This document shows positions 1,858-18,341 of a stretch of 20,000 nt of DNA, piece after piece; position 1 is the first letter of the stretch, and each line of letters opens with the position of its first letter. The position numbers and the translations under genes were made by a program. The notes under the pieces were generated by a model. That model searched no databases, had not been told where the DNA came from, and saw only the letters and a program-made list of their open reading frames with translations. This DNA is from an uncultured virus (IMG/VR IMGVR_UViG_3300011008_000050) (lineage: Duplodnaviria > Heunggongvirae > Uroviricota > Caudoviricetes), in IMG/VR virus record IMGVR_UViG_3300011008_000050; one strand, given 5' to 3'.

Positions 1858-1865
1858 GCAAATTT

Positions 1866-4694: not shown

Positions 4695-4708
4695 ATTTTG
4701 GAGAGGTT

Positions 4709-5579: not shown

Positions 5580-5581
5580 TC

Positions 5582-5607
5582 TCGATGGCAGAACCATCGA
5601 ACACACT
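5582..5607. repeat. Dispersed hairpin repeat (TCGATGG-CAGAA-CCATCGA-ACACACT) at the early/late boundary
   Basis: Perfect 7-bp stem with a different sequence but the same loop. Abuts the stop codon of 5606..5824. Confidence 0.8.
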
Positions 5608-5824: not shown

Positions 5825-5829
5825 AGTTG

Positions 5830-6476: not shown

Positions 6477-7420
6477 ACAAACATATTTGGGGTTACTTGA
6501 ATTTTCTGTTTAATAATTGGGAAATATTCAGGGTTGAGTTCAAAGCCTACGTAGTGACGTTGATACTGGAGTGCTACCATGACCGTTGTGCCAGTCCCCA
6601 TGAATGGATCGAGGATTATTCCACCCACAGGACAGCCAGCGAGAACGCAATCACGGATAAGCGCAGGGGGATAGGCGGCAAAGTGTACGTTAGAGCCTGA
6701 CGGTTTGGTATTCTGAATCCACACGTCACGTTTATTGACCAGTGACGACGTTGGGATGTTGTTGCCCTGAAAGGTTTTGTAGTTGTTGCCTGGCACATGA
6801 AAGTCCACCTTACGATGCTTCACTATCTTGGAACGTATCTTCGACCTTGCTGGTTGTTTGATGCTTTCTGAGTCGAAGTAGTAGCGATTGGATTTTGATA
6901 GCAAAAAGATGTATTCGTGTGATTTGGTGCAACGGTCACGGACACTTTCGGGCATTGCATTGGGCTTATACCAAACAATATCCTGACGGAGAAAGTAACC
7001 AAGAGAGCGCAGGGAGAAGGCCAGCATCCACGGTATGCCTATCAGGTCTTTATCCTTACATGATGTGATGTACTTATAGGCAGTACGGTTATTGAGAGTT
7101 CCACGATTGGAACCCTGCTTGTATTTCTTAGCGTTATCGGGATAGCGAGCTGCCCCTTTGTTGCTCCCTGCATAACTATCTCCAATGTTGAGCCACAAGG
7201 TGCCTTCGGGTTTTAGGACACGCAACACTTCGGCAAAGATTTCAGTGAGTCTTTCTATATATTCTTCAGGTGACCGCTCCAGTCCGATTTGCCCATCAAC
7301 ACCATAGTCCCGCAGACCGTAGTAAGGTGGTGACGTGATACAGCAGTCGATGCAGTCGGATGGCATGAGCCTCAGCCCTTCAAGACAATCCATGTTATAT
7401 GTGTTGTCAGGTTCTATCAT
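6473..7420 (-). CDS. Orphan amino (N4-C/N6-A) DNA methyltransferase, beta class
   Basis: Catalytic TSPPY near the N-terminus and SAM-binding ILDPFMGTGTT near the C-terminus. No adjacent restriction enzyme. Confidence 0.92.
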   Translation of the reverse strand: MIEPDNTYNMDCLEGLRLMPSDCIDCCITSPPYYGLRDYGVDGQIGLERSPEEYIERLTEIFAEVLRVLKPEGTLWLNIGDSYAGSNKGAARYPDNAKKYKQGSNRGTLNNRTAYKYITSCKDKDLIGIPWMLAFSLRSLGYFLRQDIVWYKPNAMPESVRDRCTKSHEYIFLLSKSNRYYFDSESIKQPARSKIRSKIVKHRKVDFHVPGNNYKTFQGNNIPTSSLVNKRDVWIQNTKPSGSNVHFAAYPPALIRDCVLAGCPVGGIILDPFMGTGTTVMVALQYQRHYVGFELNPEYFPIIKQKIQVTPNMFV

Positions 7421-7553
7421 TACTTCTACTTATTTGTTGCTTTCGTTGTTCTTTCTTACAAGCCTCGCTGCCGATGTGCTTGCGAAAACTGATTGCTCCT
7501 GTGCACCATTTGCCACAGTAGGGGCATTGGTAGGGTGTTCTGTCAAAAGCCAT
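7407..7553 (-). CDS. Small zinc-finger-like protein, 48 aa (MAFDRTPYQCPYCGKW...)
   Basis: YxCPYCGK-x9-H-x5-C pattern. The ATG at 7553 lies 4 bp after the DUF5131 stop. Confidence 0.55.
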   Translation of the reverse strand: MAFDRTPYQCPYCGKWCTGAISFRKHIGSEACKKEQRKQQISRSNDRT

Positions 7554-7557
7554 GTTC

Positions 7558-8283
7558 TTACAAATTAGGTAATTGTTTCCACTCCCTGCCATCGAGCAAA
7601 GAACCATTCTTGTATTTACTTCGCTTTACACCATCTTCGCCCCATGTACCCCATTGCTTGAAGAAGAAAGCCGTGTTGGTGTCAATGCAGCGGTCACGGA
7701 GTACACGAAACCAATCCGGGGACGGGCGACGGGCGCGGTTGCTACATTCTCCCCCCGTGATGAGCCAGTCGATGCCATCAAGCGTAATATCCCGCATATC
7801 TCCTAATAACGGTTCGCAACTGACAAAGCGGACGTTTGCGATGATGCGTTTCAGGTGGAAAATTCTTCCGTAGTGTTTGGCACTTTCGCAAGAGACCCCC
7901 AGCCATACGTTTTTAGGAACCTCGTACTCGTAGGTGAAGAACTCAGCCATCCTTTCAGCACGTTTCGTAAGAACCTGAAACGTGCATTGTGGGTTGTCCT
8001 GTATAGTCTCCATGACCTTTTTGATGAAGGAGAAGGGAACATCATCATGGAAGAGGTCGCTCATGGAGCAGACGAACACCATGCCATGCTTCCATTCGTA
8101 AGGTTCTTTGAGTGCTTCGTGGTGTATTGTCGGTATGAAGCCGTTGGCATACTTCTTTTGTCCCATGCCTTTCAGCCGCAAAGCCATTGTCTTAGCGTAG
8201 CAGTTGAAGCATCCTTCGCTTCTTGGTGTGCATCCCGTTACTGGGTTCCACACTCTTTCAGTCCATTCTATTTTTGTCGCCAT
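7558..8283 (-). CDS. Phage Gp37/Gp68 (DUF5131) family radical-SAM-like protein
   Basis: Motifs TKIEWT..WNPVTGCTPRSEGCFNCYA, VFVCSMSDLFH, FVSCEPLLG, WLITGGE and FFFKQWG. Confidence 0.9.
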   Translation of the reverse strand: MATKIEWTERVWNPVTGCTPRSEGCFNCYAKTMALRLKGMGQKKYANGFIPTIHHEALKEPYEWKHGMVFVCSMSDLFHDDVPFSFIKKVMETIQDNPQCTFQVLTKRAERMAEFFTYEYEVPKNVWLGVSCESAKHYGRIFHLKRIIANVRFVSCEPLLGDMRDITLDGIDWLITGGECSNRARRPSPDWFRVLRDRCIDTNTAFFFKQWGTWGEDGVKRSKYKNGSLLDGREWKQLPNL

Positions 8284-8341
8284 AATTCTGATGTTTTGAT
8301 GTTAGTTAGTTTTTTCTGATTGTGGATTCATTCTTCTTGCA

Positions 8342-8419
8342 TCCCCGCCTCGCCCTCTTGGGGAGGGCGGTGGCTGGGGAGCGAAGAAGAATGGTGTCCG
8401 TTCTGATGGGGAACAGACA
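8342..8419 (-). other. GC-rich hairpins immediately 3' of the putative DGR variable region
   Basis: On the minus strand: TGTCTGTTC..GAACGGACA, then TCCCC-AGCC-AC-CGCCCTC-CCCAA-GAGGGCG-A-GGC-GGGGA. Confidence 0.55.
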
Positions 8420-8421
8420 AG

Positions 8422-9018
8422 TTACTGAACAGCACGAACCGAGAAACCATAGTACCGAGTGTCGTAGATCTGCGGACTGACATTCGAACTATAGAAGTAC
8501 AAGTAGTATGCGCCGGAACTACCGCGGAACGAGGCAGACCAGTAGCTCCCGAGGGAACCACGACTGTAGAGCGACGTACCATAGTAGTAGCCAGCAGCAG
8601 GCAAGAAAATAGAATTGCCGTTAATCTTAGAGGTGAATAGACAGCCCTTCTTTCCCTTCACATCGACCCAACTACGTTTGCAGTTGTCGTAAAGTTCTTG
8701 GAAGTCTTCTTTCGTAGGCATGTGCCAGTCGCCACCAAGCATAGCGTGAGCGGCATCGTGTTCAAGCGGCAGATCAGTATCTATCTTCGATGCTGGTCTA
8801 TCTTCGTAGTCTGACCGATAGAATGTGTCATCACTACCATCCTCATGCCCCTCAGTGTCACCCCATGCGAAATAGAGTCCGCTTTCGTTAGGAGTGTTGG
8901 CTCCAAGATTCATATTTGCCCATTTACGTCCAGATGGCAAGCCAAGGTCAACGGCTTCGAGTGACGGGGTGGCGGTGTGCACCCTTGCTTCTTGGTTTTC
9001 TGAAAGTTCTTGTTTCAT
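8422..9018 (-). CDS. CLec-fold (F. succinogenes major paralogous domain-like) protein; probable DGR target, 198 aa
   Basis: Motifs AVDLGLPSGRKWANMNLGA, GLYFAWG, WHMPT, IFLPAAG, YWSAS and C-terminal GFSVRAVQ*. The 3' end is Y/S/G-rich and dominated by NNY codons. Confidence 0.8.
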   Translation of the reverse strand: MKQELSENQEARVHTATPSLEAVDLGLPSGRKWANMNLGANTPNESGLYFAWGDTEGHEDGSDDTFYRSDYEDRPASKIDTDLPLEHDAAHAMLGGDWHMPTKEDFQELYDNCKRSWVDVKGKKGCLFTSKINGNSIFLPAAGYYYGTSLYSRGSLGSYWSASFRGSSGAYYLYFYSSNVSPQIYDTRYYGFSVRAVQ

Positions 9019-9034
9019 AATGATTTTACAGGTG

Positions 9035-9883
9035 TTAATGGTGGCTGTTGTCAGTCACAGGTGAAACTTGTTTTGTTTTTGTTGTAGGTGGTGGTACGGC
9101 TTCTGCAACTCGTTTTTCGTATTCCTTTTCCCAAGCTTTCCTTTCGAGTTCACGCTGGATGGCTTCTTCTTCAAGTCTGGCTTTTTGTGGATTGAGACGC
9201 TGTTCGTGCTCTTTCCATTTTTTGAGTGCGACGGTGAAGTACTTCCATTTTTTGCGGAAGGGTTCGTTGGCTGCGATTTCGAGACAGGCTTGTTCGAGGC
9301 GGCGCAGGGTGCCATAGAGACACTTGATTTCCGTCCATCCATCTTCGCTGGGTGGTCTCATACGGGTGAGTTCCGGCGCGTTCTTTTGCAGCCAGCCTTC
9401 AAAGTCGCTGTAGGTGAGCTTGGTTTTGCCTTTTGTGGCTGGTTTTGGAGTCTCGCATGGCGGCACAGCATCAGCGTCAGAGGTGTCGCAGGGCGGTGCC
9501 TGGGTGTCTGTATTGGTGCTGGTCTGTTTGCGGCTGTTTGCGGTGGCTTCACCTCCTCTTCTTCCTGCCTCCGCCCTTGTCTTGCTAATAGATTCCCTTT
9601 TACCCATTCTTTCGAGGAACGACTTGGAGTAGAAGAACTTATTGTCTTCAGTAAATTCAAATAACCCATAGTTCTCGACAACGGATTTTACGAGTGCAGC
9701 GTCTTCACGTAGGTCAAAGGCTATCAAGTTGTAATCTTTGGCACACATGTAGTCGTTTTCTTCGCGCATTCTTTCGAGTATCATGAAGTAAACTCCATAT
9801 CCTGCTGATTTGTGTTGCATTCGCAAGCGTATGAGCTTTTCATCGTTTCGCGCGTTGCTGTCGTGTGGGAAGTAGTTATGCAT
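9035..9883 (-). CDS. DUF4373 (Lin1244/Lin1753-like) phage replication initiator
   Basis: N-terminal YFPHDSNARNDEKLIRLRMQHKSAGYGVYFMILE and RAEAGRRGG, followed by a low-complexity linker. Confidence 0.85.
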   Translation of the reverse strand: MHNYFPHDSNARNDEKLIRLRMQHKSAGYGVYFMILERMREENDYMCAKDYNLIAFDLREDAALVKSVVENYGLFEFTEDNKFFYSKSFLERMGKRESISKTRAEAGRRGGEATANSRKQTSTNTDTQAPPCDTSDADAVPPCETPKPATKGKTKLTYSDFEGWLQKNAPELTRMRPPSEDGWTEIKCLYGTLRRLEQACLEIAANEPFRKKWKYFTVALKKWKEHEQRLNPQKARLEEEAIQRELERKAWEKEYEKRVAEAVPPPTTKTKQVSPVTDNSHH

Positions 9884-9896
9884 GGCTTTAGGGTTT

Positions 9897-10337
9897 TTAT
9901 TTGGAATTGCCAGGGAGGTGGGAATCGGATAGATAGTTGTTGATTTCGCGCATGAAGTCGTAGAGTGAGCGGCATACGACGTATTTGTAGCCGTCTTGCT
10001 CGATGAGTCGTTGCCAGGAGCGTTGCGTGTCGGCCTGGCGACCCGTGCGTGTCTTCATTTCGATGAGGAGTGCGCCGTGATGTGCGTTGGGCTTGAGCAG
10101 GATGAGGTCTGCGACTCCGGGGAGTACGCCTTCTGCCTTCATCTTGGCAGCAGTCACCTTGTCACGATGGCCACCGTTTGGGACGGCGAAGAGGTTGTGG
10201 CGGCAGTGTGGGTATTGATAGCGGAACCACTGGAGGCAAGCGCACTGGATGCGGTGCTCTTCATCGTCAGGACGCTTGCGCGACTTTGTTCTTTGTCGCG
10301 CAAGCATCTGTTCAAAGGTTTGTCGGAGATTGCTCAT
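9897..10337 (-). CDS. VRR-NUC domain nuclease (Holliday junction resolvase-like)
   Basis: Motifs EEHRIQ, FAVPNGG, GVLPGVADL, IEMKT and GRQ..Q. Confidence 0.9.
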   Translation of the reverse strand: MSNLRQTFEQMLARQRTKSRKRPDDEEHRIQCACLQWFRYQYPHCRHNLFAVPNGGHRDKVTAAKMKAEGVLPGVADLILLKPNAHHGALLIEMKTRTGRQADTQRSWQRLIEQDGYKYVVCRSLYDFMREINNYLSDSHLPGNSK

Positions 10338-11104
10338 TACACTTCGATGATGGGGATCTCAGGAGCGAACTCCCTGATAAGGTTAATCTGTTCGTCAATG
10401 AGGCGGTCGCGCACTTCCTCAACGATGGATTCAGCATCAGGTGAAATCAATTCCAGTGCCACATCACGCCCGTTGACGGTTGCAATGACCTCAATCTCTA
10501 TCTCTTCGGGAGCAGCACCCTTATAGATGGGTATGCAGACCTTGAAGGAATCAGGGAGGTTGGAGTTGACCACCTTCTTATAGACATCGGTGACTGAGCC
10601 GTTATCCTTCTTCTCACGCTCGACCTCGGTCTCAATCTTGGCACGGAAGGCTTTCAGGTTGGAAACGAGAACCATGTTCTCGGCACGGTCTTTGAAGTAG
10701 GAGCGGTTGATGCGGAAGAAGTTTGCAAGGTCTTCGGGCATAAACTGAACGTCCATATTGACACCGAAAGCCTTGAACTGGCGAGACAACTCAATCTTGC
10801 CCGTAACGGTCATGATGTTGCGCTCGTCGGTCTCGTTGCAGACAAGCATCATCTTCAGGTTGTCACGGTCAACGACGATGTGAGTCCGTGCATGGTCAAT
10901 CTGCGGAACTTCTTCTTTTGAATCCATTGGTGCATCCCAACGCTTCTGAAGGAAAACGTATGGTGCCGTGATTGTACCAGTGATGCCAACCTTCTTAGGT
11001 TCCAAGATGGGTAGCGGCTCGTTGACGTGGTTGGTCTCACGAATGATCAGTTCCTTTACGGTTTCGCCCTCGGCGAAGTTGATGTTTAATTTCTCTGTGT
11101 CCAT
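10337..11104 (-). CDS. Conserved-looking hypothetical phage protein, 255 aa
   Basis: AT-rich leader, 1-bp overlap with VRR-NUC, normal globular composition. Confidence 0.8.
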   Translation of the reverse strand: MDTEKLNINFAEGETVKELIIRETNHVNEPLPILEPKKVGITGTITAPYVFLQKRWDAPMDSKEEVPQIDHARTHIVVDRDNLKMMLVCNETDERNIMTVTGKIELSRQFKAFGVNMDVQFMPEDLANFFRINRSYFKDRAENMVLVSNLKAFRAKIETEVEREKKDNGSVTDVYKKVVNSNLPDSFKVCIPIYKGAAPEEIEIEVIATVNGRDVALELISPDAESIVEEVRDRLIDEQINLIREFAPEIPIIEV

Positions 11105-11137
11105 TGTTTTGTGGATTTTGATTGTTGATAAAGTTGT

Positions 11138-11734
11138 TTATTCTCCTTGTGTGGAAAGACTACGTGAAACGACGTTGGGAAGAATGGGCTTGACCCAAAC
11201 GTGTGAGCCATCAGCAAGCATAAGTTTCTTGCATCCGGGCATGTCAGGCTCATTCTCACCTTCATTGCAGCGACCAGCATCAATGATGGTAGTTCCAATG
11301 ATTGAATCGGTTTCGTTCTTCTGAGCCAGTTGCGCGTCCTGTGCTTCCTTTGAGCGCATTTCCTCCTTTGCATCGTCGATGCGCTGTGCGAGTGTGGCAA
11401 GATAGCCCGACATGGCATTGGACTGATTGACCAGCCTGTCCATAGACTTCTGCGGGAGCGCACGGAAATCCTCTGTGAGCATGAAAGCCGTAGCCTTCAG
11501 GAAATTGTCGCGTACCTGGGCGAACTCAATACGCATACGGTCGAGCCGTGTTTCCGAAGGCATGTAAGTCTCTTCAAACACAGACTTAGGCGACCATGAC
11601 TGATAGCCATCAGGATATTGGATGAAATAGCCCTCAGACTCCTTGCAGTCAATCGTGCGGTTCAACTTCTGTTCTGCTTCACTCTTTGCCATCGGCATAG
11701 CCTTGATGGTCTTCGTACCTGTGTACTGTTTCAT
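11138..11734 (-). CDS. Two-domain phage protein: N-terminal GYxxxYxDGYxSWSPKxVFE domain plus crAss001 gp48-related helical domain
   Basis: MKQYTGTKTIKAMPM...EGYFIQYPDGYQSWSPKSVFEETY followed by LDRMRIE...QSNAMSGYLATLAQRI. Confidence 0.7.
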   Translation of the reverse strand: MKQYTGTKTIKAMPMAKSEAEQKLNRTIDCKESEGYFIQYPDGYQSWSPKSVFEETYMPSETRLDRMRIEFAQVRDNFLKATAFMLTEDFRALPQKSMDRLVNQSNAMSGYLATLAQRIDDAKEEMRSKEAQDAQLAQKNETDSIIGTTIIDAGRCNEGENEPDMPGCKKLMLADGSHVWVKPILPNVVSRSLSTQGE

Positions 11735-11766
11735 TTTGTTTTTTTGAATTTAATTGTTATTGACTG

Positions 11767-11790
11767 GTCGCCATGACATGGCGACATACT
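11767..11790. repeat. Hairpin GTCGCCA-TGACA-TGGCGAC-ATACT; a looser member of the dispersed repeat family
   Basis: Perfect inverted repeat 3 bp after the stop of 11794..12228. Shares the CATACT tail with the 17218 copy. Confidence 0.5.
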
Positions 11791-11793
11791 TAA

Positions 11794-12228
11794 CTACTCA
11801 TTAGCCGCCTTGCGCTGGACGGTGAAAAGAGTTGGCTGGCGCAGTTCCTCGCGTGTTGCCGGACGTGAGGAAACGAGGATTCCTTCTGCATTGTAGAAGC
11901 AAGCCATCTTTTCCTCTCGCTCGATGAAGCAATAGCACTTCTCGCGCACCGTCTTACCTTTGGACTTGATGTCAGCAAGTAGAGCCGTGCGTGTTTCTTT
12001 GAGCGGTTTCAGTTCAAGGTTCATGTTTGCACGATAATCCTTGATGTCTTCTTCGATGTCATTGATACGGATGCACGTCTCGGAAAGTTCAGTCTTCTTC
12101 CTTGCCAGTTCATCAGAATCAAATGCTTTGTGGTAGTCCATTTCCACCACGCTGTCTGCATTGTCGATGAGGAAGTTCTTTCGGGCTTCAAGGTCGGCAA
12201 TGTCCTGTCCTAATACTTTTTGAATCAT
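11794..12228 (-). CDS. Hypothetical phage protein, 144 aa (coiled coil plus C-terminal beta domain)
   Basis: AT-rich leader and operon context. Confidence 0.8.
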   Translation of the reverse strand: MIQKVLGQDIADLEARKNFLIDNADSVVEMDYHKAFDSDELARKKTELSETCIRINDIEEDIKDYRANMNLELKPLKETRTALLADIKSKGKTVREKCYCFIEREEKMACFYNAEGILVSSRPATREELRQPTLFTVQRKAANE

Positions 12229-12257
12229 ACTTAAAAATTTTTATTGGGTTATTACTT

Positions 12258-12284
12258 CCATGCGGTAAAACCGCACGGCACACT
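12258..12284. repeat. Dispersed hairpin repeat (CCATGCGG-TAAAA-CCGCACGG-CACACT)
   Basis: Directly abuts the HU stop codon and has the same geometry as the other copies. Confidence 0.75.
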
Positions 12285-12557
12285 TTACTTTACCTGTTCT
12301 TTCAGTTCCTTGCAGGGAATGAACTTCACGACCTTACGTTCAGGTACGGTGACAGAGGTTCCACGGGTGATGTTGCGGGCAGTCTTGGCGGCACGCTGCT
12401 CAATGCGGAATGTTCCGAATCCACGGAGATAGATGTTTTCTCCACGGAAGAATGCCCTTGTGGCAGAATGCATGAGTGCTTCGATGGCTTCAAGAGCCTG
12501 AGACTTCGTAAGTCTTGTGTTGCTGACCATTTCGTCAGCGAGGTCATTTTTTGTCAT
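12285..12557 (-). CDS. hup: HU/IHF family DNA-binding protein
   Basis: Motifs MTKNDL, IYLRGFGTF, ARNITRG and VPERKVVKFIPCKELKEQVK. Confidence 0.95.
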   Translation of the reverse strand: MTKNDLADEMVSNTRLTKSQALEAIEALMHSATRAFFRGENIYLRGFGTFRIEQRAAKTARNITRGTSVTVPERKVVKFIPCKELKEQVK

Positions 12558-12744
12558 TGTCTTGTTGTTTTTTTAAGTTATTTGATAGTTTTTTTGTCAT
12601 AAGGCGCATGCGCCTTATGCGATTTTGCAAACGTAGTGTGCCAACCCCCATCTTGCGTTTACGTGCTACTTCCTGTTCCGTGAGGGTGGTGCCATCGATG
12701 AGAAACTGGATGATGTTCTTGATGTCTGTCTTGCTTATTTCCAT
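12544..12744 (-). CDS. Small basic hypothetical protein, 66 aa
   Basis: Overlaps both neighbours by 10-14 bp. Confidence 0.65.
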   Translation of the reverse strand: MEISKTDIKNIIQFLIDGTTLTEQEVARKRKMGVGTLRLQNRIRRMRLMTKKLSNNLKKQQDNDKK

Positions 12745-14213
12745 GATGTTATTGTTTTCTCGTCGGCAAAACCGTCGGGTACAGTGTTTTTTTCTGTTTC
12801 GTCGGCAAAACCGTTGGGCACAGTGAATAATGAGGTGACCAGTTCGTCGAAGTAGGCTTCGGAGGTTGGAATGTCATCGTCGGAGGCCATGATTTGGCTT
12901 GCGATGGACTTTTTACGATGGATGATGTTGTAGAGCGCGAAGTCGATGGTTGCCCTGCCAATGAGGTAGTAGCAGGTCACGTTGTCACGTTGTCCGATGC
13001 GGTGTGCACGGTCTTCGCACTGGCAGCAGTCGGCATAGGTCCATGGGAATTCCACGAAAGCGACATTGGACGATGCTGTGAGGGTGAGGCCGACACCAGC
13101 AGCCTTGATGGAGCAGATGATGAGCCTGGCATGGCCGGACTGAAAGGCATCGACGGCAGCTTGTTTTGCCGTGAGGCTGTCACGCCCTGTAACACGGACG
13201 GCATGAGGGAAGGCACGGCAGAGGGCATCCACGATGTCGTGATAGGAGCAGAAGATGATGAGCTGCTTGCCTGATGCGAGGAAGTTTCGGGTAAAGTCGA
13301 TGGCCTGTTTCACTTTTCCCATGGCTGAGAGTGAGCGTAGTGTCATGAACTTGACCAGTGCTTCCATGCGCATTTTTCGCCGTATCTCAACATCGGTGCA
13401 CTCCTTGTACTGGCGAAGGTATTCAGCGAGATTGGTGGCAGCAAGGTTGTATTCGTCGCGGTTGGAAATATCGACGTAGAGGTCGCAGCGTGTCTTTTCG
13501 GGCAGTTCCGTCAGGACTTTTGCCTTTTCCCTGCGGATGAGGCAGGAGGAATAGAGCCGTGATGAAAGTTCGTTCAGGTTCTCGCCGTCGCCATACATGG
13601 AGAGGAAAGCTCCCTTTCCACCGAACTCGCTCAGGCGGTTCATGATGGAGAGTTGTGAGACGAGGTCTTCAGGACGGTTGACCACAGGTGTTCCTGACAG
13701 GAGTATGCACCAGCGTTTGCCTGTTGCAATGCCCTTGGTGAAGATGGTCTGCCCGGTAGAGGGGTCTTTCACACGATGTGATTCGTCGATGATGATGGAC
13801 TTGAAGAGTTTGATGTGTGGGCAGAAGACAACGTCTTTGAGGCGAAAGGACTTGCCGCCCTTGATGTCCCAGACGAAGAACTTGCGCAGGGATTCATAGT
13901 TGACAATGGCGACATGGTGCATCTTCATTTGCAGCAGGTACGGCCAGGTGGTGCGGGTGTTATTGTCGAGAACGAGGGCTTTCTTGTCGGTGAACTTCTC
14001 GAATTCGCGCTGCCAGTTGATTTTTAGCGAGGAAGGACAGATAACGAGGCATGGATAGGCGTTGGCTGTATCTACGATGCCGATGGATTGCAGTGTCTTG
14101 CCAAGGCCTGGTTCATCGCCGATGATAAGGCGTTGCTTTTGAAGCCCGAAGCGTATGCCCTCCAGCTGGTAGGGGTAGGGCTGCACTTTTAGATGATGTT
14201 GAAGTTCTGTCAT
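12735..14213 (-). CDS. SNF2-family (SMARCAL1/HARP-like) helicase
   Basis: Motifs GDEPGLGKT, DESH, LSGTP, GVGLTLT and QCEDRAHRIGQ. Confidence 0.93.
   Translation of the reverse strand: MTELQHHLKVQPYPYQLEGIRFGLQKQRLIIGDEPGLGKTLQSIGIVDTANAYPCLVICPSSLKINWQREFEKFTDKKALVLDNNTRTTWPYLLQMKMHHVAIVNYESLRKFFVWDIKGGKSFRLKDVVFCPHIKLFKSIIIDESHRVKDPSTGQTIFTKGIATGKRWCILLSGTPVVNRPEDLVSQLSIMNRLSEFGGKGAFLSMYGDGENLNELSSRLYSSCLIRREKAKVLTELPEKTRCDLYVDISNRDEYNLAATNLAEYLRQYKECTDVEIRRKMRMEALVKFMTLRSLSAMGKVKQAIDFTRNFLASGKQLIIFCSYHDIVDALCRAFPHAVRVTGRDSLTAKQAAVDAFQSGHARLIICSIKAAGVGLTLTASSNVAFVEFPWTYADCCQCEDRAHRIGQRDNVTCYYLIGRATIDFALYNIIHRKKSIASQIMASDDDIPTSEAYFDELVTSLFTVPNGFADETEKNTVPDGFADEKTITSWK
12760..12825. repeat. 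Tandem pair of the dispersed repeat (39-bp period), translated as the helicase C-terminal tail
   Basis: TCGTCGG-CAAAA-CCGTCGG-GTACAGTG and TCGTCGG-CAAAA-CCGTTGG-GCACAGTG, encoding TVPDGFADE and TVPNGFADE. Confidence 0.85.
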
Positions 14214-14229
14214 ATTCTTCTGTTGGGTT

Positions 14230-14255
14230 CTGACGGCAGAAGCGTCAGGCGCAGT
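14230..14255. repeat. Dispersed hairpin repeat (CTGACGG-CAGAA-GCGTCAG-GCGCAGT) overlapping a stop codon
   Basis: CTGACG/CGTCAG stem with the same loop. Supplies the TGA of 14245..14925. Confidence 0.7.
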
Positions 14256-14925
14256 TTAAGTTAAGACACCAATACTGGAAAGCCAGTTCTTCATACTTGG
14301 CACGTCCACGCTCATAGGTGGCATCGCCACGATGTATGAAGTGCTTGAAGACACGGTTTGTTTTCTTGCTGATGGCGTAGATGAAGTCACGGTCGGTGCC
14401 GGCAATGTCCATGTACCAGGCGCGGCTGCGGTCCCAGTCGAAGAAGTCAATGGCTTCTTCAAACTCCTTCTGTGTTGAGGCGAAAGTGGTTTTGAGGTCT
14501 CCGCCAATGTTGACACCAACCTTTTCTTTCGGTAGCCACCAGTCCCATTTGCACCGTGTATCAAGCATGAAGGGAAACTGACTATACTCAAATCGTTGGT
14601 TCAGACGCACCATGATGTGCTGCGTGTTGGCTTCATTGAGGACGATATTGAGGAACTGGTCTTTTATCGCTTCCCTTCTAAGTGCACCGAACATTTCCTC
14701 TGCATGGCGAAACTCGTCTTCCGTGTACTGTTCATCATCGACGGTGAGGGTGTAGAAGTTGACCCGTTTCGGCTCTGTGATGATGGCATCGACGAGGTTA
14801 CCGAATCGGAAGGCTGTCTCGCGGTCTCCGAACTGGAGGCGAGGGTGCAGAAGGTTTTTGAGGGTGGTGAGGTCTGAGTTGGAGACCTCACTACGGTGAT
14901 AGTATGTGTCGGGGTTGGAGCTCAT
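14245..14925 (-). CDS. PD-(D/E)XK exonuclease, RecE/exonuclease VIII-like (DUF3799 type)
   Basis: YY...VSNSDL, FRFGNLVDAIITEP, RCKWD and GDLKTT; lies near recT. Confidence 0.8.
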   Translation of the reverse strand: MSSNPDTYYHRSEVSNSDLTTLKNLLHPRLQFGDRETAFRFGNLVDAIITEPKRVNFYTLTVDDEQYTEDEFRHAEEMFGALRREAIKDQFLNIVLNEANTQHIMVRLNQRFEYSQFPFMLDTRCKWDWWLPKEKVGVNIGGDLKTTFASTQKEFEEAIDFFDWDRSRAWYMDIAGTDRDFIYAISKKTNRVFKHFIHRGDATYERGRAKYEELAFQYWCLNLNCA

Positions 14926-14942
14926 GCGCTTTCTTTATTTAT

Positions 14943-14969
14943 CCCTGCGGCAGAACCGCAGGGCACAGT
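14943..14969. repeat. Dispersed hairpin repeat (CCCTGCGG-CAGAA-CCGCAGGG-CACAGT)
   Basis: Perfect 8-bp stem abutting the stop codon of 14969..16165. Confidence 0.85.
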
Positions 14970-16165
14970 TACTTTGCTTTGACTTCGTCTTCGTAGGAGA
15001 TGTGTTCGGACTTGATGATTGTTCCTTCTTTTGCCATCTTTTCGCAGAATGTGATTTGCTTCTTGAATATCTTTGTCAGTTCTTCGATTGGAAGTTTGCA
15101 GCCTTCGGAAAGCCACCACATGCTGAATATTTCAGGGAAAGCTTCGGCATTGAGGGGAACGAGTCTTTTTTTGACTTGTGTCTTTGGCTGGTAGGCTGGG
15201 GCGGAGATTTGGGCTGCATCGAACAATCCTTTGATTTCAGTCTGTTTGGCTTGCATTTCTGCTTCCTTTCTCTGTTGTTGTTCCCGCTTTGCGCGTTCTT
15301 CGGCCAGCCTTGCAGCTTCTGCTGCATCTTTTTCGGCCATTTCCTTGCGGATGCGTTCTGCTTCTTCTGCGTTTGCGCTTGCGGCTTTTTCCAGTTCCTG
15401 GCGCTTAGATGGCATGAGGTCGAGGATGCGCTGGCGTTCAGCTGTCATTGCCTGTTCGAACTCTTTCTTGAAGGATGGTAGTAGTTGCTGGAGTGTGTCT
15501 TCACGTATCTGCTTCAACTCGTCTGCATCTATGAGGCCAGCCAGTGGGAGCGGGGCGGAAGAACGTACTGTCTGTGTGTAATCTTCAGGGAAAAAGTGGA
15601 CTGTATTTTGAATTTCAGCCAGACGCTGTTCGTAGTTGTCGAGGCTAACGGTTGTGAACAGTCCCTGCAGCCCTTCGATGTGGAAATCAAGAAAGCCTTG
15701 GAAGTCATTGCGGTAGTCGCTATCGCAGTCGGAGCGGTACTTGGCTTTGGCTTGTTCTATTTGCTGGCGACGCATGGCTTCACGCTGGCGTTGCGCTTCT
15801 TCTTCACGTTTCTTGGCTGCGTATCGGTTGCGTTCCTGCTGGATGAGGAAGGGGACGGTTCCGCTTTTTGTAAGGTCGATGGCGTTCTCCATGCCTGTGA
15901 ACTGGGTGCGGATGTCGTCGAAGAGTTTTGTGAGCGGTGAACGCTTGTCGTTCATCTTTCGGATAGTCTTTCGGGCTTTCTCTATGAAGATGGCGGCTTG
16001 CTGGTCGAGTTCGTCGGTCATGCCTTGTTGCATCTTTGCCAGCAGTTGTTTGCCAGCTTCGATGCAGCGGTCACGGCTGACAGCGTTTTCGTTGAAGGCG
16101 GCTGGAGCCGAGGACACAATGGTGTCGATGTTTTCCTTTCGGATGATTGCGAAATCTGTATGCAT
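14969..16165 (-). CDS. Coiled-coil protein of the recombination module, 398 aa
   Basis: Long E/Q/R/K/A-rich helical stretches; sits between recT and the exonuclease. Confidence 0.75.
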   Translation of the reverse strand: MHTDFAIIRKENIDTIVSSAPAAFNENAVSRDRCIEAGKQLLAKMQQGMTDELDQQAAIFIEKARKTIRKMNDKRSPLTKLFDDIRTQFTGMENAIDLTKSGTVPFLIQQERNRYAAKKREEEAQRQREAMRRQQIEQAKAKYRSDCDSDYRNDFQGFLDFHIEGLQGLFTTVSLDNYEQRLAEIQNTVHFFPEDYTQTVRSSAPLPLAGLIDADELKQIREDTLQQLLPSFKKEFEQAMTAERQRILDLMPSKRQELEKAASANAEEAERIRKEMAEKDAAEAARLAEERAKREQQQRKEAEMQAKQTEIKGLFDAAQISAPAYQPKTQVKKRLVPLNAEAFPEIFSMWWLSEGCKLPIEELTKIFKKQITFCEKMAKEGTIIKSEHISYEDEVKAK

Positions 16166-16183
16166 GATTGTATGTGTGTTAAG

Positions 16184-17188
16184 TTAGAATGTTCCATCAT
16201 CTTCACCTGCAGCACCAGCAGAAGGGTCAACTGTCACACCTGCTGATGTGTCGGCAGGGTTGCCGAAGGGTGTATTTGTGTCTTGTGGCATGACCTGGTC
16301 TTGCTGTCCTTCCACATGATAGAAATCATCAATGTTGGCCTGTTCCTCTTCTGGCTGCTGTGACTCCAGTTCGGCCTTTCCGATACGCATTTTCGGATAG
16401 GTCTTGAAGGCGTGTTTGATGAGTTTGGCACAGAGGAAGCCGCTGTCTATTTTACCGTTGTTGGCTGTGTAGAGTGCATTGGGAACTTCTATATACTTGT
16501 TGGCATTGGCATCCCACTTCTTGTTTGCCTTTCCGGAATAGGTCAGCAGACGCATCCAGTCTTCTTCCAGCATGACTGCGTAGTCGATGGAACCGTCTGA
16601 GCGAGTGATGCGGAGGTAGGCGGCAATGACGTGGTTTGACGTGTGAGGGAGGTGGCAGGTGTAGGATACTTGCTTTCGTCCGTCCTGGTCGGAAAACGAG
16701 AAGTTGTCTTCCTCATAGACGAGGACGGGATTGTCGGCATGACGAATCTGCCCGGAACGTGCGCGAAGCACCAATTCGCCGTAGCCGCTGATGGTAAGCA
16801 CGAGGCGACCTTCATACTGGTACATGATGTTGCCCTGACGGTCACGCAGGGGCTGTCCGCTGGTGTCGAGCTTTGGGACGTTGGTCTTGTAGTTGCGTCC
16901 CATGAGGTAGCAGAGTGCACGGGCACCTGGTTCTAATGACAGGCCGCAGACGGCGAGGTCGATGAACGATGTGAAGATGGAGAACTTGGATGCCTTCTGC
17001 AACTTCTCATCATCACGAAGGATGGCATTGAAGTGGATGCTTTCGCGCTGATAGGCTGGTTCTCCGCTACCAGCACCCCAAAGGGTGTCGTGAATCTGGA
17101 TGAAGCGTGTGCGCACGGCTTCTGACTGGATGATGTCGAGGGGGTTGAGCTTGTTGATTTGCTCAATGGTAAGTTGAATGCTACTCAT
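16184..17188 (-). CDS. recT: RecT-family single-strand annealing protein, 334 aa (start ATG at 17188, MSSIQLT)
   Basis: SIFTSFIDLAVCGLSLEP...CYL, LTISGYGELVL, VYEEDNF, AKLIKHAFK and an acidic tail. A-rich leader precedes 17188. Confidence 0.85.
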   Translation of the reverse strand: MSSIQLTIEQINKLNPLDIIQSEAVRTRFIQIHDTLWGAGSGEPAYQRESIHFNAILRDDEKLQKASKFSIFTSFIDLAVCGLSLEPGARALCYLMGRNYKTNVPKLDTSGQPLRDRQGNIMYQYEGRLVLTISGYGELVLRARSGQIRHADNPVLVYEEDNFSFSDQDGRKQVSYTCHLPHTSNHVIAAYLRITRSDGSIDYAVMLEEDWMRLLTYSGKANKKWDANANKYIEVPNALYTANNGKIDSGFLCAKLIKHAFKTYPKMRIGKAELESQQPEEEQANIDDFYHVEGQQDQVMPQDTNTPFGNPADTSAGVTVDPSAGAAGEDDGTF

Positions 17189-17217
17189 GATGTTTTGTTT
17201 TTTTATTGTTAATACTG

Positions 17218-17242
17218 GCTGCGGCAGAGCCACAGCATACTG
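17218..17242. repeat. Dispersed hairpin repeat variant (GCTGCGG-CAGAG-CCACAGC-ATACTG)
   Basis: Lies between the tRNA-like cluster and recT; stem has one mismatch. Confidence 0.6.
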
Positions 17243-17254
17243 AACACTAATTGT

Positions 17255-17336
17255 TGGTGCCAAGGAGTGGAGTCGAACCACCAACGGGACCAAATCTTAT
17301 GTGCAGCGCGTACCTTCTTATGCTGCCTTCCTTGGC
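17255..17336 (-). ncRNA. tRNA-like RNA: perfect acceptor stem, T-arm and ACCA end, no canonical anticodon arm
   Basis: GCCAAGG...GGTGG-TTCGACT-CCACT-CCTTGGC-A-CCA. Internal GCAGC/GCTGC stem. Confidence 0.7.
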
Positions 17337-17359
17337 TTTTGTTAATACTAATTTTTTTG

Positions 17360-17457
17360 TGGGAAGCGGCGGAATCGAACCGCCGTCCGAAAAGAAGCTT
17401 TTTGAAACTGAAACACAAAACTCTTGAACAGGACCTGCTTCTTTCGCCGTTCTTCCC
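17360..17457 (-). ncRNA. tRNA-like RNA resembling the tRNA-like domain of tmRNA (98 nt)
   Basis: GGGAAG/CTTCCC-A acceptor, long helix CGAAAGAAGC/GCTTCTTTTCG, GAC linker, and T-arm GGCGG-TTCGATT-CCGCC. Confidence 0.6.
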
Positions 17458-17460
17458 GTG

Positions 17461-17503
17461 TGTGGGGCTATGGCCGCTTGCCGTTGAGACTTTCCATAGC
17501 CCC
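17461..17503 (-). other. Minihelix-like hairpin GGGGCTATGG-N20-CCATAGCCCC-ACA
   Basis: Perfect 10-bp stem, 3 nt upstream of the next tRNA-like element. Confidence 0.5.
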
Positions 17504-17576
17504 GGTGTTGTCCGTGCTGTTGCGGACTGTCATCGGTTTATGGCCTTTACAGGGGGATTCCCTTCCGCTGGCTTTT

Positions 17577-17876
17577 CTATGATAGCATGAATGGGTCGTG
17601 GTAGAACTGGCTGCTGAGGTCTGAGGGGCAGGGTTGTCCGGGACGGCCTTTGCAGAGTCTCTCTTGGCCGCCTGTACGTCTGTGGGTGTGGAGATAACAG
17701 TTGGGTATGCAGCGGTAGCCGTTGCGTACAATGTTGACAGTCTCTGTAATGTCAGCCTGAATTTTCGCGTCGGCTTCTCTGATGGCATCCGCTGTTTTTC
17801 TTTTTCGTGGCTTCTGCCAGCCTTGCACTGGTCGCTGTGCGTGGATGTGGTTGAGGGTTTTCTTGATTCTTGTCAT
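17577..17876 (-). CDS. Hypothetical basic protein, 99 aa, embedded in the tRNA-like cluster
   Basis: A-rich leader AAAACAATAAAAAACATCAACC before the ATG. Confidence 0.55.
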   Translation of the reverse strand: MTRIKKTLNHIHAQRPVQGWQKPRKRKTADAIREADAKIQADITETVNIVRNGYRCIPNCYLHTHRRTGGQERLCKGRPGQPCPSDLSSQFYHDPFMLS

Positions 17877-17900
17877 GGTTGATGTTTTTTATTGTTTTGC

Positions 17901-17977
17901 TGGTGAATGGGGCAGGAGTCGAACCTGCTGTTTGCGGCTTAGGGTGCCGCAGCTCCATCCGTAGGAGTTCCCCATCC
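17901..17977 (-). tRNA. tRNA-Arg(CCT)-like gene with non-canonical positions
   Basis: GGATGGG-GA-ACTC-CTACGGATG-GAGC-T-GCGGC-ACCCTAA-GCCGC-AAACA-GCAGG-TTCGACT-CCTGC-CCCATTC-A-CCA, 77 nt. Has G8, A32 and C33 instead of U8, Y32 and U33. Confidence 0.7.
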
Positions 17978-18071
17978 GATATGCCCTGCCGCTGCAGGGC
18001 GAAAAAAAAGGTTGATGGATAAAATCACAGGGCAGATGCTTCGCAGCATGTTGTTGGTGCCCGTCTAATAC

Positions 18072-18341
18072 TTATTGAAAGTAGTCTTGATGTTTATTCT
18101 GCAGGAGTCGCAGGTCTGCGGTTCGGTATTCTACTTTGCCTGGTCGTTTGTGGCCTTCGATTTTTCCTTGGCGTACCCATCTTTCGACATTGCCTCGTCC
18201 GAAGATTCTGTATGCTTCGCGTTGGGAAACCATGTCTGGCTCTTCTTTTGCTTGCTTGAGTTGGTGGACGACGTGAGCGGCGAGGTCGGTAATGAAGGTT
18301 TCGTAGGAAACCATGCGGTCGGAGAATTGTATCTGTATCAT
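18072..18341 (-). CDS. Excisionase-like HTH DNA-binding protein, 89 aa
   Basis: MVSQREAYRIFGRGNVERWVRQGKI..KRPGKVEYRTADL fits a Xis/MerR-type winged HTH. Confidence 0.7.
   Translation of the reverse strand: MIQIQFSDRMVSYETFITDLAAHVVHQLKQAKEEPDMVSQREAYRIFGRGNVERWVRQGKIEGHKRPGKVEYRTADLRLLQNKHQDYFQ

What the first reader, a model, noticed from the sequence alone, without database searches (positions are those of the whole stretch)
17255..17977. Packed cluster of four tRNA-shaped RNAs, mostly without a usable anticodon, upstream of recT
Seen: four co-oriented minus-strand elements. These are a full cloverleaf (17901-17977), a minihelix (17461-17503), a tmRNA-TLD-like RNA (17360-17457) and an acceptor-plus-T-arm RNA ending ACCA (17255-17336). 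The last three are separated by only 3 and 23 nt. The three larger elements keep their acceptor stems and canonical TTCGAnT T-arms, while D and anticodon regions have diverged. Known: RNase P, RNase Z, the CCA enzyme and EF-Tu read the acceptor/T 'top half', and anticodon nucleases such as PrrC, RloC and PARIS AriB are anti-phage effectors. Inference: selective retention of the top half suggests function rather than decay. Options are tRNA-mimic decoys against tRNA-targeting defences, or processing signals that cut the long early transcript.
Basis: partly seen in the sequence, partly recalled or inferred. Interest (0 to 1): 0.8.

Follow-up and report, generated by a model that had tools for sequence, protein, structure and literature searches.

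The report
Phage tRNA-derived RNAs upstream of recT
A Bacteroidales phage carries three worn-down tRNA genes in the untranslated leader of its recombination genes; they have lost their decoding parts but keep the end that tRNA-processing enzymes recognise, most likely so that the long transcript is cut there.

Summary
Three of the four elements are real tRNA-shaped RNAs on the minus strand; the "minihelix" is an ordinary hairpin. None reaches Rfam's tRNA cut-off. Element 1 (17901-17977) is a tRNA-Arg(CCU)-derived cloverleaf with C33. Element 4 (17255-17336) is a tRNA-Leu-derived acceptor/T-arm RNA. Element 3 (17360-17457) is not a tmRNA.

The window is the early region of a temperate Bacteroidales phage. 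The leader of its recT operon is a tRNA slot: 25 of 53 distinct relatives carry an acceptor plus T-arm element there. Some are canonical tRNAs (Gln, Met, Ala); others keep only the top half.

In the five-member element-4 family the acceptor and T stems covary (4 of 12 pairs compensatory, 95% paired). The stretch between them is 12, 46, 79, 125 or 127 nt.

In 8 of 12 relatives it lies 4-7 nt before the tRNA(-like).

Best reading (0.4): tRNA-derived RNase P/Z punctuation of the leader transcript. Decoys for anticodon nucleases are unlikely. No expression data could be obtained.

The parts
18072..18341 (-). ORF89, a small HTH-like early protein. It is the conserved gene that precedes the noncoding leader in relatives.
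   Evidence: phrog_17289 at 4.7e-8. tblastn gives 40 matches among the fetched loci. In L033, L016, L015, L034, L089, L092 and L094 it is followed directly by the leader motif.
17983..18000 (-). GC-rich hairpin 5 nt upstream of element 1, preceded by a T8 run (18002-18009).
   Evidence: Sequence and fold (last sequence).
17901..17977 (-). Element 1: a tRNA-Arg(CCU)-derived cloverleaf ending ACCA. It is non-canonical: G8, 3 nt between acceptor and D stem, a 6-bp anticodon stem and loop ACCCUAA (C33).
   Evidence: ARAGORN tRNA-Arg(cct). Below the Rfam tRNA cut-off; tRNA-Sec 29.8 against 47. Cloverleaf MFE z -3.8. Homologues L264/L265 show 6 compensatory pairs. Shares the ACGGAT...CTGCGG words of canonical phage tRNA-Arg genes.
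17577..17876 (-). ORF99, an unverified open frame between element 1 and the leader motif. Together with element 1 it is absent from the closest relatives.
   Evidence: No Pfam or PHROG family. No tblastn match in any fetched locus. No blastn match in relatives.
17510..17575 (-). Conserved leader RNA motif ('CM'): pseudoknotted core at 17529-17575 plus hairpin P4 at 17510-17527.
   Evidence: A4 with pair counts: 90.4% paired, 5 of 12 pairs compensatory, 0 of 500 shuffles. Columns 8 and 48 switch G.A to A.G in 21 of 21 rows. Model R1 scores 69.6 bits here and hits 11 of 53 recT loci. No Rfam match.
17461..17503 (-). The 'minihelix': a 10-bp hairpin with a 20-nt loop. It forms a conserved module with element 3 and is not tRNA-like.
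   Evidence: Fold z -4.2. A hairpin of different sequence but like shape precedes the element-3 homologue in L244, L252 and L260.
17360..17457 (-). Element 3: a 6-bp acceptor stem plus T-arm (GGCGG/TTCGATT/CCGCC) enclosing about 67 nt, with tail ACAA.
   Evidence: ARAGORN reads part of it (17359-17443) as tRNA-SeC(tca). Weak tmRNA-type matches only. Homologues in L244, L252 and L260 have the same T-arm, one compensatory acceptor pair and a shared inner word.
17255..17336 (-). Element 4: a tRNA-Leu-derived acceptor (GCCAAGG/CCTTGGC) plus T-arm RNA ending ACCA. The 46-nt interior holds remnants of the D and anticodon arms (loop CAUAAGA, A33).
   Evidence: Family alignment A5: 95% paired, 4 of 12 pairs compensatory, 0 of 500 shuffles. 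Alignment to a Bacteroidaceae tRNA-Leu.
17218..17236 (-). Small hairpin after element 4, followed by AGTATTAAC and the recT start.
   Evidence: Fold z -3.1. Hairpins of other sequence stand at the same place in L089, L016 and L050, each followed by (A/T)(G/T)TATTAAC.
16184..17188 (-). recT, the first gene of the recombination operon.
   Evidence: Pfam RecT 5.8e-7. phrog_148. An exonuclease VIII-like gene lies at 14245-14925.

Best explanation
The stretch between the small HTH gene and recT is the noncoding leader of the early recombination operon of a temperate Bacteroidales podovirus-like phage. In this phage family the leader is a slot for tRNA genes.

In the window the slot holds tRNA-derived RNAs that no longer look able to decode. 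These are an Arg(CCU)-derived cloverleaf with a deviant anticodon loop, a Leu-derived RNA and a third acceptor/T-arm RNA. All three keep the acceptor-stem/T-arm minihelix under purifying selection.

Most likely these top halves are kept because they are what the host's tRNA end-processing enzymes recognise: RNase P at the 5' side, and RNase Z and the CCA enzyme at the 3' side. On this reading they act as punctuation. They cut the leader transcript into the conserved pseudoknotted leader RNA (17510-17575), the tRNA-like RNAs and the recT mRNA.

Shown: the anatomy, the homology to tRNA-Arg and tRNA-Leu, the covariation of the top half, the variable interior and the fixed position. Inferred: co-transcription, cleavage by RNase P/Z, and the benefit to the phage.
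For: (1) Three T-arm words lie in one 720-nt stretch against 0.04 expected. Each abuts an acceptor stem.

(2) A slot exists. 25 of 53 distinct recT-upstream regions have a T-arm plus acceptor element within 320 nt on the sense strand. Controls give 4 of 53 antisense, 0 of 52, 0 of 51 and 2 of 50 in other stretches, and 44 of 1060 in shuffles. Thirteen of the 25 are close variants of one human-gut type.

(3) Occupants differ. Canonical tRNAs stand directly before recT in L018 (Ala, 60.8 bits), L036 and L031 (Gln), and L034 and L020 (Met). Top-half elements stand there in others.

(4) The element-4 family has 5 distinct members with interiors of 12, 46, 79, 125 and 127 nt. Pairing holds in 95% of cells, 4 of 12 pairs are compensatory and 0 of 500 shuffles do as well.

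(5) Element 1 against L264/L265 shows 6 compensatory pairs over acceptor, D and T stems, while the loop shrinks to 6 nt.

(6) Position is fixed. In 8 of 12 leader-motif-bearing recT loci an acceptor-type stem starts 4-7 nt after hairpin P4. These are L089, L092, L016, L050, L094, L034, L018 and L015. This is the geometry of a 5' leader released by RNase P.

(7) From established knowledge (recalled): the acceptor/T minihelix with 3' RCCA suffices for bacterial RNase P, and tRNAs co-transcribed with mRNA are cut out, as in the E. coli tufB operon.
Against: There are no expression or end-mapping data. No RNA run holds the stretch.

The leader motif also occurs without any tRNA-like. In L033 it is followed by a U-run, and it stands alone in L037 and in a second group of viral contigs. 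Processing by a tRNA-like is therefore not obligatory.

28 of 53 relatives have no such element by this scan.

In the window itself a hairpin and 52 nt separate P4 from element 3. Element 1 lies upstream of the motif, beyond ORF99.

The comparative sets are small: 5, 3 and 4 sequences, representing 5, 2 and 2 lineages.

Two of the three elements encode a full ACCA, which only 3 of 27 tRNA genes of a related host-type genome do. This could instead point to a role for the mature CCA-ended RNA itself.
Confidence: 0.4

Rival explanations
1. The RNAs themselves are the product. They would be stable CCA-ended tRNA mimics, processed and protected like tRNAs. They could act as sponges or decoys for host factors that read the acceptor/T-arm or CCA end, such as toxins that modify tRNA 3' ends. 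Alternatively they could serve as a constant scaffold carrying a variable working insert at the anticodon-arm position.
For: Selection acts on the top half only. The interior is replaced wholesale between relatives (12-127 nt), as expected of a fast-evolving working part or cargo.

A full ACCA is encoded in elements 1 and 4, although host-type tRNA genes rarely encode CCA (3 of 27).

A short word UA(A/G)GAU persists in the interiors of the window, L089 and L092.

Toxins that inactivate tRNA acceptor ends exist (PMC7450476; title and start of abstract seen).
Against: No defence or counter-defence gene is linked. The 12-nt interior of L089 leaves no room for cargo. No complementarity or target was found or systematically sought. 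Canonical tRNAs fill the same slot in relatives, which suits a generic processing role better.
Confidence: 0.2
2. Element 1 still decodes. It would be a working phage tRNA-Arg(CCU) supplying AGG codons, and the other elements would be irrelevant to it.
For: ARAGORN tRNA-Arg(cct). A full cloverleaf with a 7-nt loop, A37 and an ACCA end. AGG makes up 197 of 1310 Arg codons in long open frames of the phage, a rough count.
Against: It scores below Rfam's tRNA cut-off. It has C33 instead of the near-universal U33, G8, an extra nucleotide before the D stem and a 6-bp anticodon stem. Its only homologues have a 6-nt loop, so decoding is not what is conserved.
Confidence: 0.2
3. Neutral decay: these are dying tRNA genes without function, caught at different stages.
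For: The D and anticodon parts are visibly eroded. Many relatives have lost the element altogether (28 of 53). The occupants of the slot turn over.
Against: Neutral decay would erode acceptor and T stems too. Instead, T stems differ at most positions yet stay paired: 92% of cells paired, with 3 of 5 pairs compensatory. The T-loop word is invariant in all five.
Confidence: 0.13
4. One reading: decoys for anticodon nucleases (PrrC, RloC, PARIS AriB).
For: Phage tRNAs are known to counter such nucleases (recalled; only review listings were seen).
Against: Elements 3 and 4 and their relatives lack an anticodon stem-loop. What is conserved is the opposite end of the molecule. No PrrC/RloC-countering genes such as RNA ligase or kinase were seen among the 26 window proteins or the 26 other proteins of the same phage that were scanned.
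Confidence: 0.04
5. Integration-site (attP) remnants of host tRNA genes, or a tmRNA-like trans-translation RNA.
For: The phage has an integrase. Element 3's 3' part aligns weakly to tmRNA models.
Against: Both acceptor strands are present and covary. The integrase lies at the other end of the 61.9-kb record, at least 3 kb away. The elements keep their place relative to recT in many phages.

ARAGORN finds no tmRNA, Rfam scores are far below cut-off, there is no tag frame, and the window has G3-C70 rather than G3.U70.
Confidence: 0.03

Closest known systems
tRNA genes co-transcribed with protein genes and cut out by RNase P/RNase Z (E. coli thrU-tyrU-glyT-thrT-tufB operon; phage T4 tRNA cluster with its small stable 'species 1 and 2' RNAs). 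Recalled, not read here.
   Same: tRNA-shaped units lie in one orientation ahead of coding genes. In T4, extra small RNAs of unknown function are processed along with the tRNAs.
   Different: Here the units have lost their decoding parts and only the acceptor/T-arm half is conserved. The interior varies from 12 to 127 nt among homologues. The host is a Bacteroidales bacterium.
tRNA-like processing signals: mascRNA at the 3' end of MALAT1, and the vtRNA-hairpin units (TMERs) of murine gammaherpesvirus 68. Recalled.
   Same: A tRNA-like fold that does not decode recruits RNase P or RNase Z to define the ends of neighbouring RNAs. The tRNA-like receives or carries CCA.
   Different: Those are eukaryotic or animal-virus cases with full cloverleaf-like folds. 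Cleavage has not been shown here.
Theta (minimal HDV-like) ribozymes next to tRNAs of gut Bacteroidota phages (PMC10879173; section 7 and search passages read).
   Same: The same kind of phage and host phylum. A structured RNA abuts phage tRNAs (Met, suppressor and Leu are the commonest partners), and few of those tRNAs encode CCA. The purpose is tRNA end maturation.
   Different: Theta ribozymes sit within 5 nt of the tRNA 3' end and cleave at their own 5' end. The window's conserved motif lies 5' of the tRNA-likes and has another fold order. No HDV-type Rfam match appeared at E<=10. There is no stop-codon recoding.
tmRNA tRNA-like domain
   Same: An acceptor stem plus T-arm with a large insertion in place of the D and anticodon arms. 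Discriminator A.
   Different: No tag frame and no pseudoknots. Scores are far below cut-offs. G3.U70 is absent in the window's copy.
Bacterial Y RNA (YrlA) tRNA-like module (PMC4201824) and the B. cereus regulatory pseudo-tRNA 'tRNA-Other' (PMC3399842). For both, only the title and start of the abstract were seen.
   Same: Non-decoding RNAs that mimic part of a tRNA. YrlA-type RNAs are also reported from phages.
   Different: As recalled, YrlA's ends lie in a Ro-binding stem rather than the acceptor stem, and it is linked to Ro/Rtc genes. No such genes were seen here.

Membership tests
Canonical tRNA (Rfam RF00005) | Covariance-model score at or above the gathering cut-off (29 bits) | tested here: not met
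   There are 0 matches in the window at gathering thresholds. Seven elements at the same place in relatives do pass, at 36.6-60.8 bits.
Canonical tRNA (Rfam RF00005) | Cloverleaf with a 5-bp anticodon stem and a 7-nt loop carrying U33 | tested here: not met
   Element 1 is a cloverleaf but has a 6-bp stem, loop ACCCUAA (C33) and G8. Element 4 has only remnants, with loop-like CAUAAGA and A33. Element 3 has none.
Canonical tRNA (Rfam RF00005) | 7-bp acceptor stem stacked on a 5-bp T stem with a TTCGAnT loop | tested here: met
   Elements 1 and 4 have 7 of 7 acceptor pairs and element 3 has 6 of 7. All three have 5-bp T stems.
tmRNA | Detected by ARAGORN or Rfam tmRNA models | tested here: not met
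   ARAGORN finds no tmRNA. cyano_tmRNA scores 16.6 against 70 and permuted tmRNA 13.6 against 47.
tmRNA | Internal tag reading frame with a stop, pseudoknots, and the G3.U70 alanine identity pair | tested here: not met
   By reading the sequence, the interior of about 67 nt has no frame that ends inside the element. The window has G3-C70. The homologues in L252 and L260 do have G3.U70.
tRNA-Sec | Model score at or above 47 bits; long extra arm; UCA anticodon; a genome that recodes UGA | tested here: not met
   The best score is 29.8 bits, on element 1. ARAGORN's SeC(tca) call on 17359-17443 uses another acceptor register. A 6468-codon frame of the same phage is open under code 11.
tRNA-like processing signal (RNase P/Z punctuation; mascRNA/TMER kind) | Conserved acceptor/T-arm minihelix irrespective of the rest of the molecule | tested here: met
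   Element-4 family: 95% paired, 4 of 12 compensatory pairs, interiors of 12-127 nt. Element-1 family: 6 compensatory pairs.
tRNA-like processing signal (RNase P/Z punctuation; mascRNA/TMER kind) | Sits at the junction of two co-oriented functional RNAs | tested here: met
   It lies between the conserved leader motif and recT. It starts 4-7 nt after hairpin P4 in 8 of 12 loci.
tRNA-like processing signal (RNase P/Z punctuation; mascRNA/TMER kind) | Cleavage at its ends by RNase P/RNase Z in vivo or in vitro | not testable with these tools
   No RNA run was listed.
Theta/HDV-like ribozyme-tRNA unit | HDV-like ribozyme whose cleavage site lies within 5 nt of the tRNA 3' end | tested here: inconclusive
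   No HDV-type match at E<=10 in 16900-18300, and the trailers are A/T-rich. The theta descriptor itself was not available to run.
attP fragment of a host tRNA gene | Only the 3' part of a tRNA, next to the integrase | tested here: not met
   Both acceptor strands are present. The integrase is at positions 1004-2050 of the 61.9-kb record, whose other end lies inside recT.

The most novel reading that the evidence does not exclude
These phages use the acceptor/T-arm minihelix as a natural 'tRNA scaffold'. It would be a constant chassis that host enzymes trim, CCA-tail and protect. It carries a freely exchangeable insert (12-127 nt) at the anticodon-arm position as the working part, for example a sponge, antisense RNA or decoy for acceptor-end-targeting defence toxins.

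Together with the unlisted pseudoknotted leader motif, this would form a new kind of early noncoding-RNA array at the head of the recombination operon.
Probability: 0.2. Interest if true: 0.85.

Novelty: new variant of a known kind. Interest (0 to 1): 0.58.

Why it matters
Phage tRNA genes are usually discussed as codon suppliers or as replacements for tRNAs that host defences cut. Here a family of Bacteroidales phages gives a natural series running from intact tRNAs to 44-nt acceptor/T-arm minihelices at one genomic position. Selection is visible on the top half only.

That would be direct comparative evidence that phage 'pseudo-tRNAs' can be kept for what tRNA-processing enzymes see, not for decoding. 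tRNA scanners miss or mislabel them; here one was called SeC.

The region also yields a conserved pseudoknotted RNA motif with no match in Rfam 15 in these searches. It is found on phage contigs and in 0 of 150 other sampled Bacteroidales genomes. It marks the start of these leaders, and its role (regulator, antiterminator or small RNA) is open and testable.

Tried and rejected
- blastn of 17100-18100 against 50,697 phage records found no match.
- The window's own assembly is not held. The nearest record, G001, is identical to window 1-16252 but ends inside recT, so it lacks the region.
- Expression: no RNA holder was listed for 17150-18100.
- Suppressor or recoding idea (CUA or UCA readings of the loops): rejected. 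A 6468-codon frame and most of the phage are open under code 11.
- tmRNA and tRNA-Sec readings were rejected.
- Theta/HDV-like ribozyme: none seen by Rfam. The authors' own descriptor was not run.
- attP reading was rejected.
Eighty loci were examined. They were mostly ordinary tRNAs (29 Leu, 10 Phe and others) and 25 were without a tRNA call. None lay beside the leader motif.
- The element-3 scan gave 22 loci, of which only 3 were true homologues, all nearly identical.
- The element-1 scan gave 20 loci, of which only 2 were homologues, plus 4 canonical tRNA-Arg genes.
- A fixed-spacing scan for the leader motif gave 3 loci and was replaced by a variable-gap scan. One of its 18 distinct hits (L058) was judged a false match and dropped before alignment.
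- Literature: searches gave no paper describing these elements or the leader motif. Supplements were not consulted.
- Complementarity of the inserts to phage or host targets was not examined.
Full report
**What is there.**
On the minus strand the window reads: ORF89 (18341-18072); a terminator-like hairpin; a T8 run and a GC hairpin (18000-17983); element 1 (17977-17901); ORF99 (17876-17577); a conserved motif (17575-17510); a hairpin (17503-17461); element 3 (17457-17360); 23 nt; element 4 (17336-17255); a small hairpin (17236-17218); AGTATTAAC; and recT (17188-16184).

The T-arm word GGTTCGANTCC occurs three times in the 20 kb, all here and all on this strand. Chance expectation is 0.04, and 0 of 200 shuffles reach 3. 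Each T-arm runs straight into a 3' acceptor strand that pairs with a 7-mer upstream: 7 of 7, 6 of 7 and 7 of 7 pairs.

ARAGORN reports only element 1 as tRNA-Arg(cct) and part of element 3 as 'tRNA-SeC(tca)'. Rfam reports nothing at gathering thresholds. With E<=10 it gives tRNA-Sec at 29.8 bits (cut-off 47) on element 1 and tmRNA-type fragments of 13.6-16.6 bits on the T-arm region of element 3.

Element 1 and the hairpin fold far better than shuffles (z -3.8 and -4.2). Elements 3 and 4 as whole molecules do not (z -1.5 and -0.6).

The 'minihelix' is a plain hairpin, and the tmRNA likeness is superficial.

**Whose DNA it is.**
Window 1-16252 is identical to the last 16,252 bases of a 61.9-kb virus record, G001, which stops inside recT. 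That phage has:
- an integrase, a P22-type portal and an SU10-type capsid protein;
- a reverse transcriptase;
- a RecT/exonuclease VIII pair.

G001 has no tRNA by ARAGORN. It also has a 6468-codon frame open under the standard code, so stop-codon recoding and a need for suppressor or Sec tRNAs can be set aside.

RecT relatives come from rumen and gut viral contigs and from Bacteroidaceae, Rikenellaceae, Muribaculaceae and other Bacteroidales assemblies.

**The slot.**
I collected 76 recT loci and dropped three with under 250 nt of upstream sequence. These gave 53 distinct upstream regions. A simple scan required a T-loop word, at least 4 of 5 T-stem pairs and at least 6 of 7 acceptor pairs.

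| Stretch scanned | Regions with an element |
|---|---|
| 320 nt before recT, sense strand | 25 of 53 |
| Same stretch, antisense | 4 of 53 |
| Other stretches of the same loci | 0 of 52, 0 of 51, 2 of 50 |
| Shuffles | 44 of 1060 |

Thirteen of the 25 are near-identical human-gut variants, and one (L035) is probably chance.

Rfam's tRNA model passes seven of the elements that stand directly before recT in the 20 loci scanned: L018 Ala 60.8, L036 Gln 60.2, L034 Met 52.1, L020 Met 45.3, L094 44.3, L031 Gln 41.9 and L008 36.6 bits. Others carry elements with D and T arms whose anticodon arm is replaced by 38-47 nt, or with no anticodon arm at all.

**Element 4.**
Four homologues share its acceptor (GCCAARG/CYTTGGY), discriminator A and tail C-N-A. 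They are L089, L092, L016 and L050.

Between the 5' acceptor strand and the T-arm lie 12, 46 (window), 79, 125 and 127 nt. On the MAFFT alignment the ends align and the middle does not.

The 12 acceptor and T pairs are paired in 95% of cells. Four pairs show compensatory changes, and the T stems differ at most positions. None of 500 shuffles does as well on cells paired or on covariation score. Slid controls give 30-52% pairing.

The acceptor is of tRNA-Leu type: 29 of 80 viral loci with this 3' word are tRNA-Leu. Aligned to a tRNA-Leu of a related Bacteroidaceae genome, the window's interior still shows remnants of the D arm and of an anticodon arm, with loop CAUAAGA (A33) and a shortened extra arm.

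This is a decay series of an ancestral tRNA-Leu in which only the top half is held. L089 is reduced to a 44-nt minihelix plus ACCA.

**Element 1.**
It shares the ACGGAT...CTGCGG words of canonical phage tRNA-Arg genes. Its deviations are G8, an extra base before the D stem, a 6-bp anticodon stem and C33.

Its only homologues, L264 and L265, stand directly after the leader motif in another subgroup. They keep the acceptor, D and T stems through 6 compensatory pairs of 22, but have a 6-nt loop. What is conserved is the shape, not a decoding loop.

In the window, element 1 and ORF99 are an insertion relative to the closest relatives. ORF99 has no family and no homologue among the loci.

**Element 3 and the hairpin.**
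Three nearly identical homologues (L244, L252, L260) have the same T-arm and an acceptor with one compensatory pair. Position 7 is mismatched in the homologues as in the window. They share the inner word GTTT(C)AGTTTC(TC)AAAAAGC and the tail ACAA. Each is preceded by a long hairpin of different sequence but like shape.

The hairpin and element 3 thus form a module. With only two lineages, little more can be said.

The stretch 17510-17575 is the best-conserved noncoding sequence here: 94% identity to L033 against 71% for RecT.

Twenty-one distinct copies align without difficulty. I propose:
- a 3-bp outer helix;
- an inner hairpin;
- a pseudoknot helix (CRxCGG with CCGxUG);
- a 3' hairpin, P4, with loop RAAYAGNA.

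Overall, 90.4% of cells are paired and 5 of 12 pairs are compensatory, four of them in the inner hairpin. None of 500 shuffles does as well on cells paired or covariation score. The pseudoknot pairs are nearly invariant and therefore untested. However, the two purines facing each other inside that helix switch together, G.A in 10 rows and A.G in 11, and both states occur in both contig groups.

No Rfam family matches the motif in the window or in ten other loci. A covariance model finds it in 11 of the 53 recT loci, and in 1 of 151 sampled genomes of the order, which is the one known prophage copy.

It also occurs on a second group of viral contigs, after a TATATAAGCC-type sequence and before a protein gene, with no tRNA-like.

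In 12 recT-linked copies the distance to the next acceptor-type stem is as follows.

| Distance after P4 | Loci |
|---|---|
| 4-7 nt | L089, L092, L016, L050, L094, L034, L018, L015 (L015's element lacks the T-loop word) |
| About 16 nt | L017 |
| 52 nt | The window |
| No acceptor-type stem | L033 (followed by a U-run), L037 |

**How it most likely works.**
The fixed order is leader motif, then tRNA or top-half element, then small hairpin, then recT. With all parts co-oriented and so closely spaced, this points to one transcript.

From established knowledge (recalled), bacterial RNase P needs only the acceptor/T minihelix with 3' RCCA. RNase Z and the CCA enzyme also read the top half.

The simplest account is that tRNA genes lodged in this leader have lost decoding in many lineages. 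They must still be cut out, so selection holds just the part these enzymes see. Cleavage would release the leader RNA with a 4-7 nt tail and free the recT message.

Against this reading:
- there are no RNA data;
- the motif exists without tRNA-likes;
- more than half of the relatives lack the element;
- the comparative sets are small;
- ACCA is encoded in two of three elements, although only 3 of 27 tRNA genes in a related host-type genome encode CCA. This hints that the mature CCA-ended RNA may matter in itself.

**Rivals.**
These are stable mimics or scaffolded small RNAs (0.2), a still-decoding element 1 (0.2, not exclusive), neutral decay (0.13), anticodon-nuclease decoys (0.04), and attP or tmRNA-like roles (0.03).

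**Comparison with what is known.**
The closest kinds are:
- co-transcribed tRNA-mRNA operons and the T4 tRNA cluster with its small RNAs (recalled);
- tRNA-like processing signals such as mascRNA and the gammaherpesvirus vtRNAs (recalled);
- the theta-ribozyme-tRNA units of gut Bacteroidota phages (PMC10879173, section 7 read).

The last of these show that these phages invest in tRNA end processing. They lie on the 3' side of the tRNA and have a different fold.

I found no description of top-half-only tRNA derivatives with variable interiors in phage leaders, nor of the leader motif, in four literature searches.

**Verdict.**
The decoy-for-anticodon-nuclease idea is unlikely. The processing-signal idea is the best current reading at 0.4. 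This is a new variant of a known kind, of moderate to good interest, raised by the unlisted leader motif.

Noticed in passing
window 17510-17575 (-): A conserved pseudoknotted RNA motif with no Rfam match. There are 21 distinct copies on phage contigs. The inner hairpin covaries, and a G.A/A.G purine pair switches in 21 of 21 rows. The motif is absent from 150 other sampled Bacteroidales genomes.
   Followed up: yes
window 8413-8610 (-), within ORF 8422-9018: Variable repeat of a diversity-generating retroelement. The template repeat and reverse transcriptase lie outside the window (G001 41836-42032 and 42076-43455). 21 of 24 differences fall at template adenines. A second variable repeat lies at G001 40762-40959.
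   Followed up: partly
outside the window: G001 4520-23926 (+): A single open frame of 6468 codons, about a third of the 61.9-kb phage record.
   Followed up: no
window 17337-17359 and 17189-17254 (-): The words ATTAGT(A/G)TT and AGTATTAAC recur after element 3 and after element 4. This suggests that the hairpin plus element 3 module was added by duplication or recombination at this word. A small covarying hairpin plus AGTATTAAC precedes recT in relatives too.
   Followed up: partly
window 18001-18071 (-): ORF89 is followed by a hairpin with a U-rich tail (terminator-like), then a T8 run and a GC hairpin just before element 1. Element 1 may therefore have its own start signal.
   Followed up: no
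L037 about 3380-3420, L110 about 2270-2310, L036 about 3200-3240: Another conserved noncoding word, GCGTT(C/T)(T/A)CATCGGAACACGCA(A/G)GGG, lies in recT leaders of more distant relatives.
   Followed up: no
L017 and L020 (recT leaders); L005/L006 1900-3000: Noncoding leaders of over 1 kb hold repeated modules: a GC hairpin followed by ATCACCCGGCCCGGG-type words, and a second motif beginning GGGAGCCCAGCGGGGCAGAAGATCCCGG. They also hold tRNA-likes of 113-135 nt with large insertions.
   Followed up: no
L146, L148, L159, L199 (unrelated viral contigs): T-arm plus acceptor-3' ends of the element-4 kind, in loci where ARAGORN calls no tRNA. A matching 5' acceptor strand lies 117-237 nt upstream. Insert-bearing tRNA-likes may therefore be more widespread in gut phages.
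   Followed up: no
window 17577-17876 (-): ORF99 has no family and no homologue in any fetched locus, and may not be a gene. If so, about 880 nt between ORF89 and recT is noncoding.
   Followed up: partly
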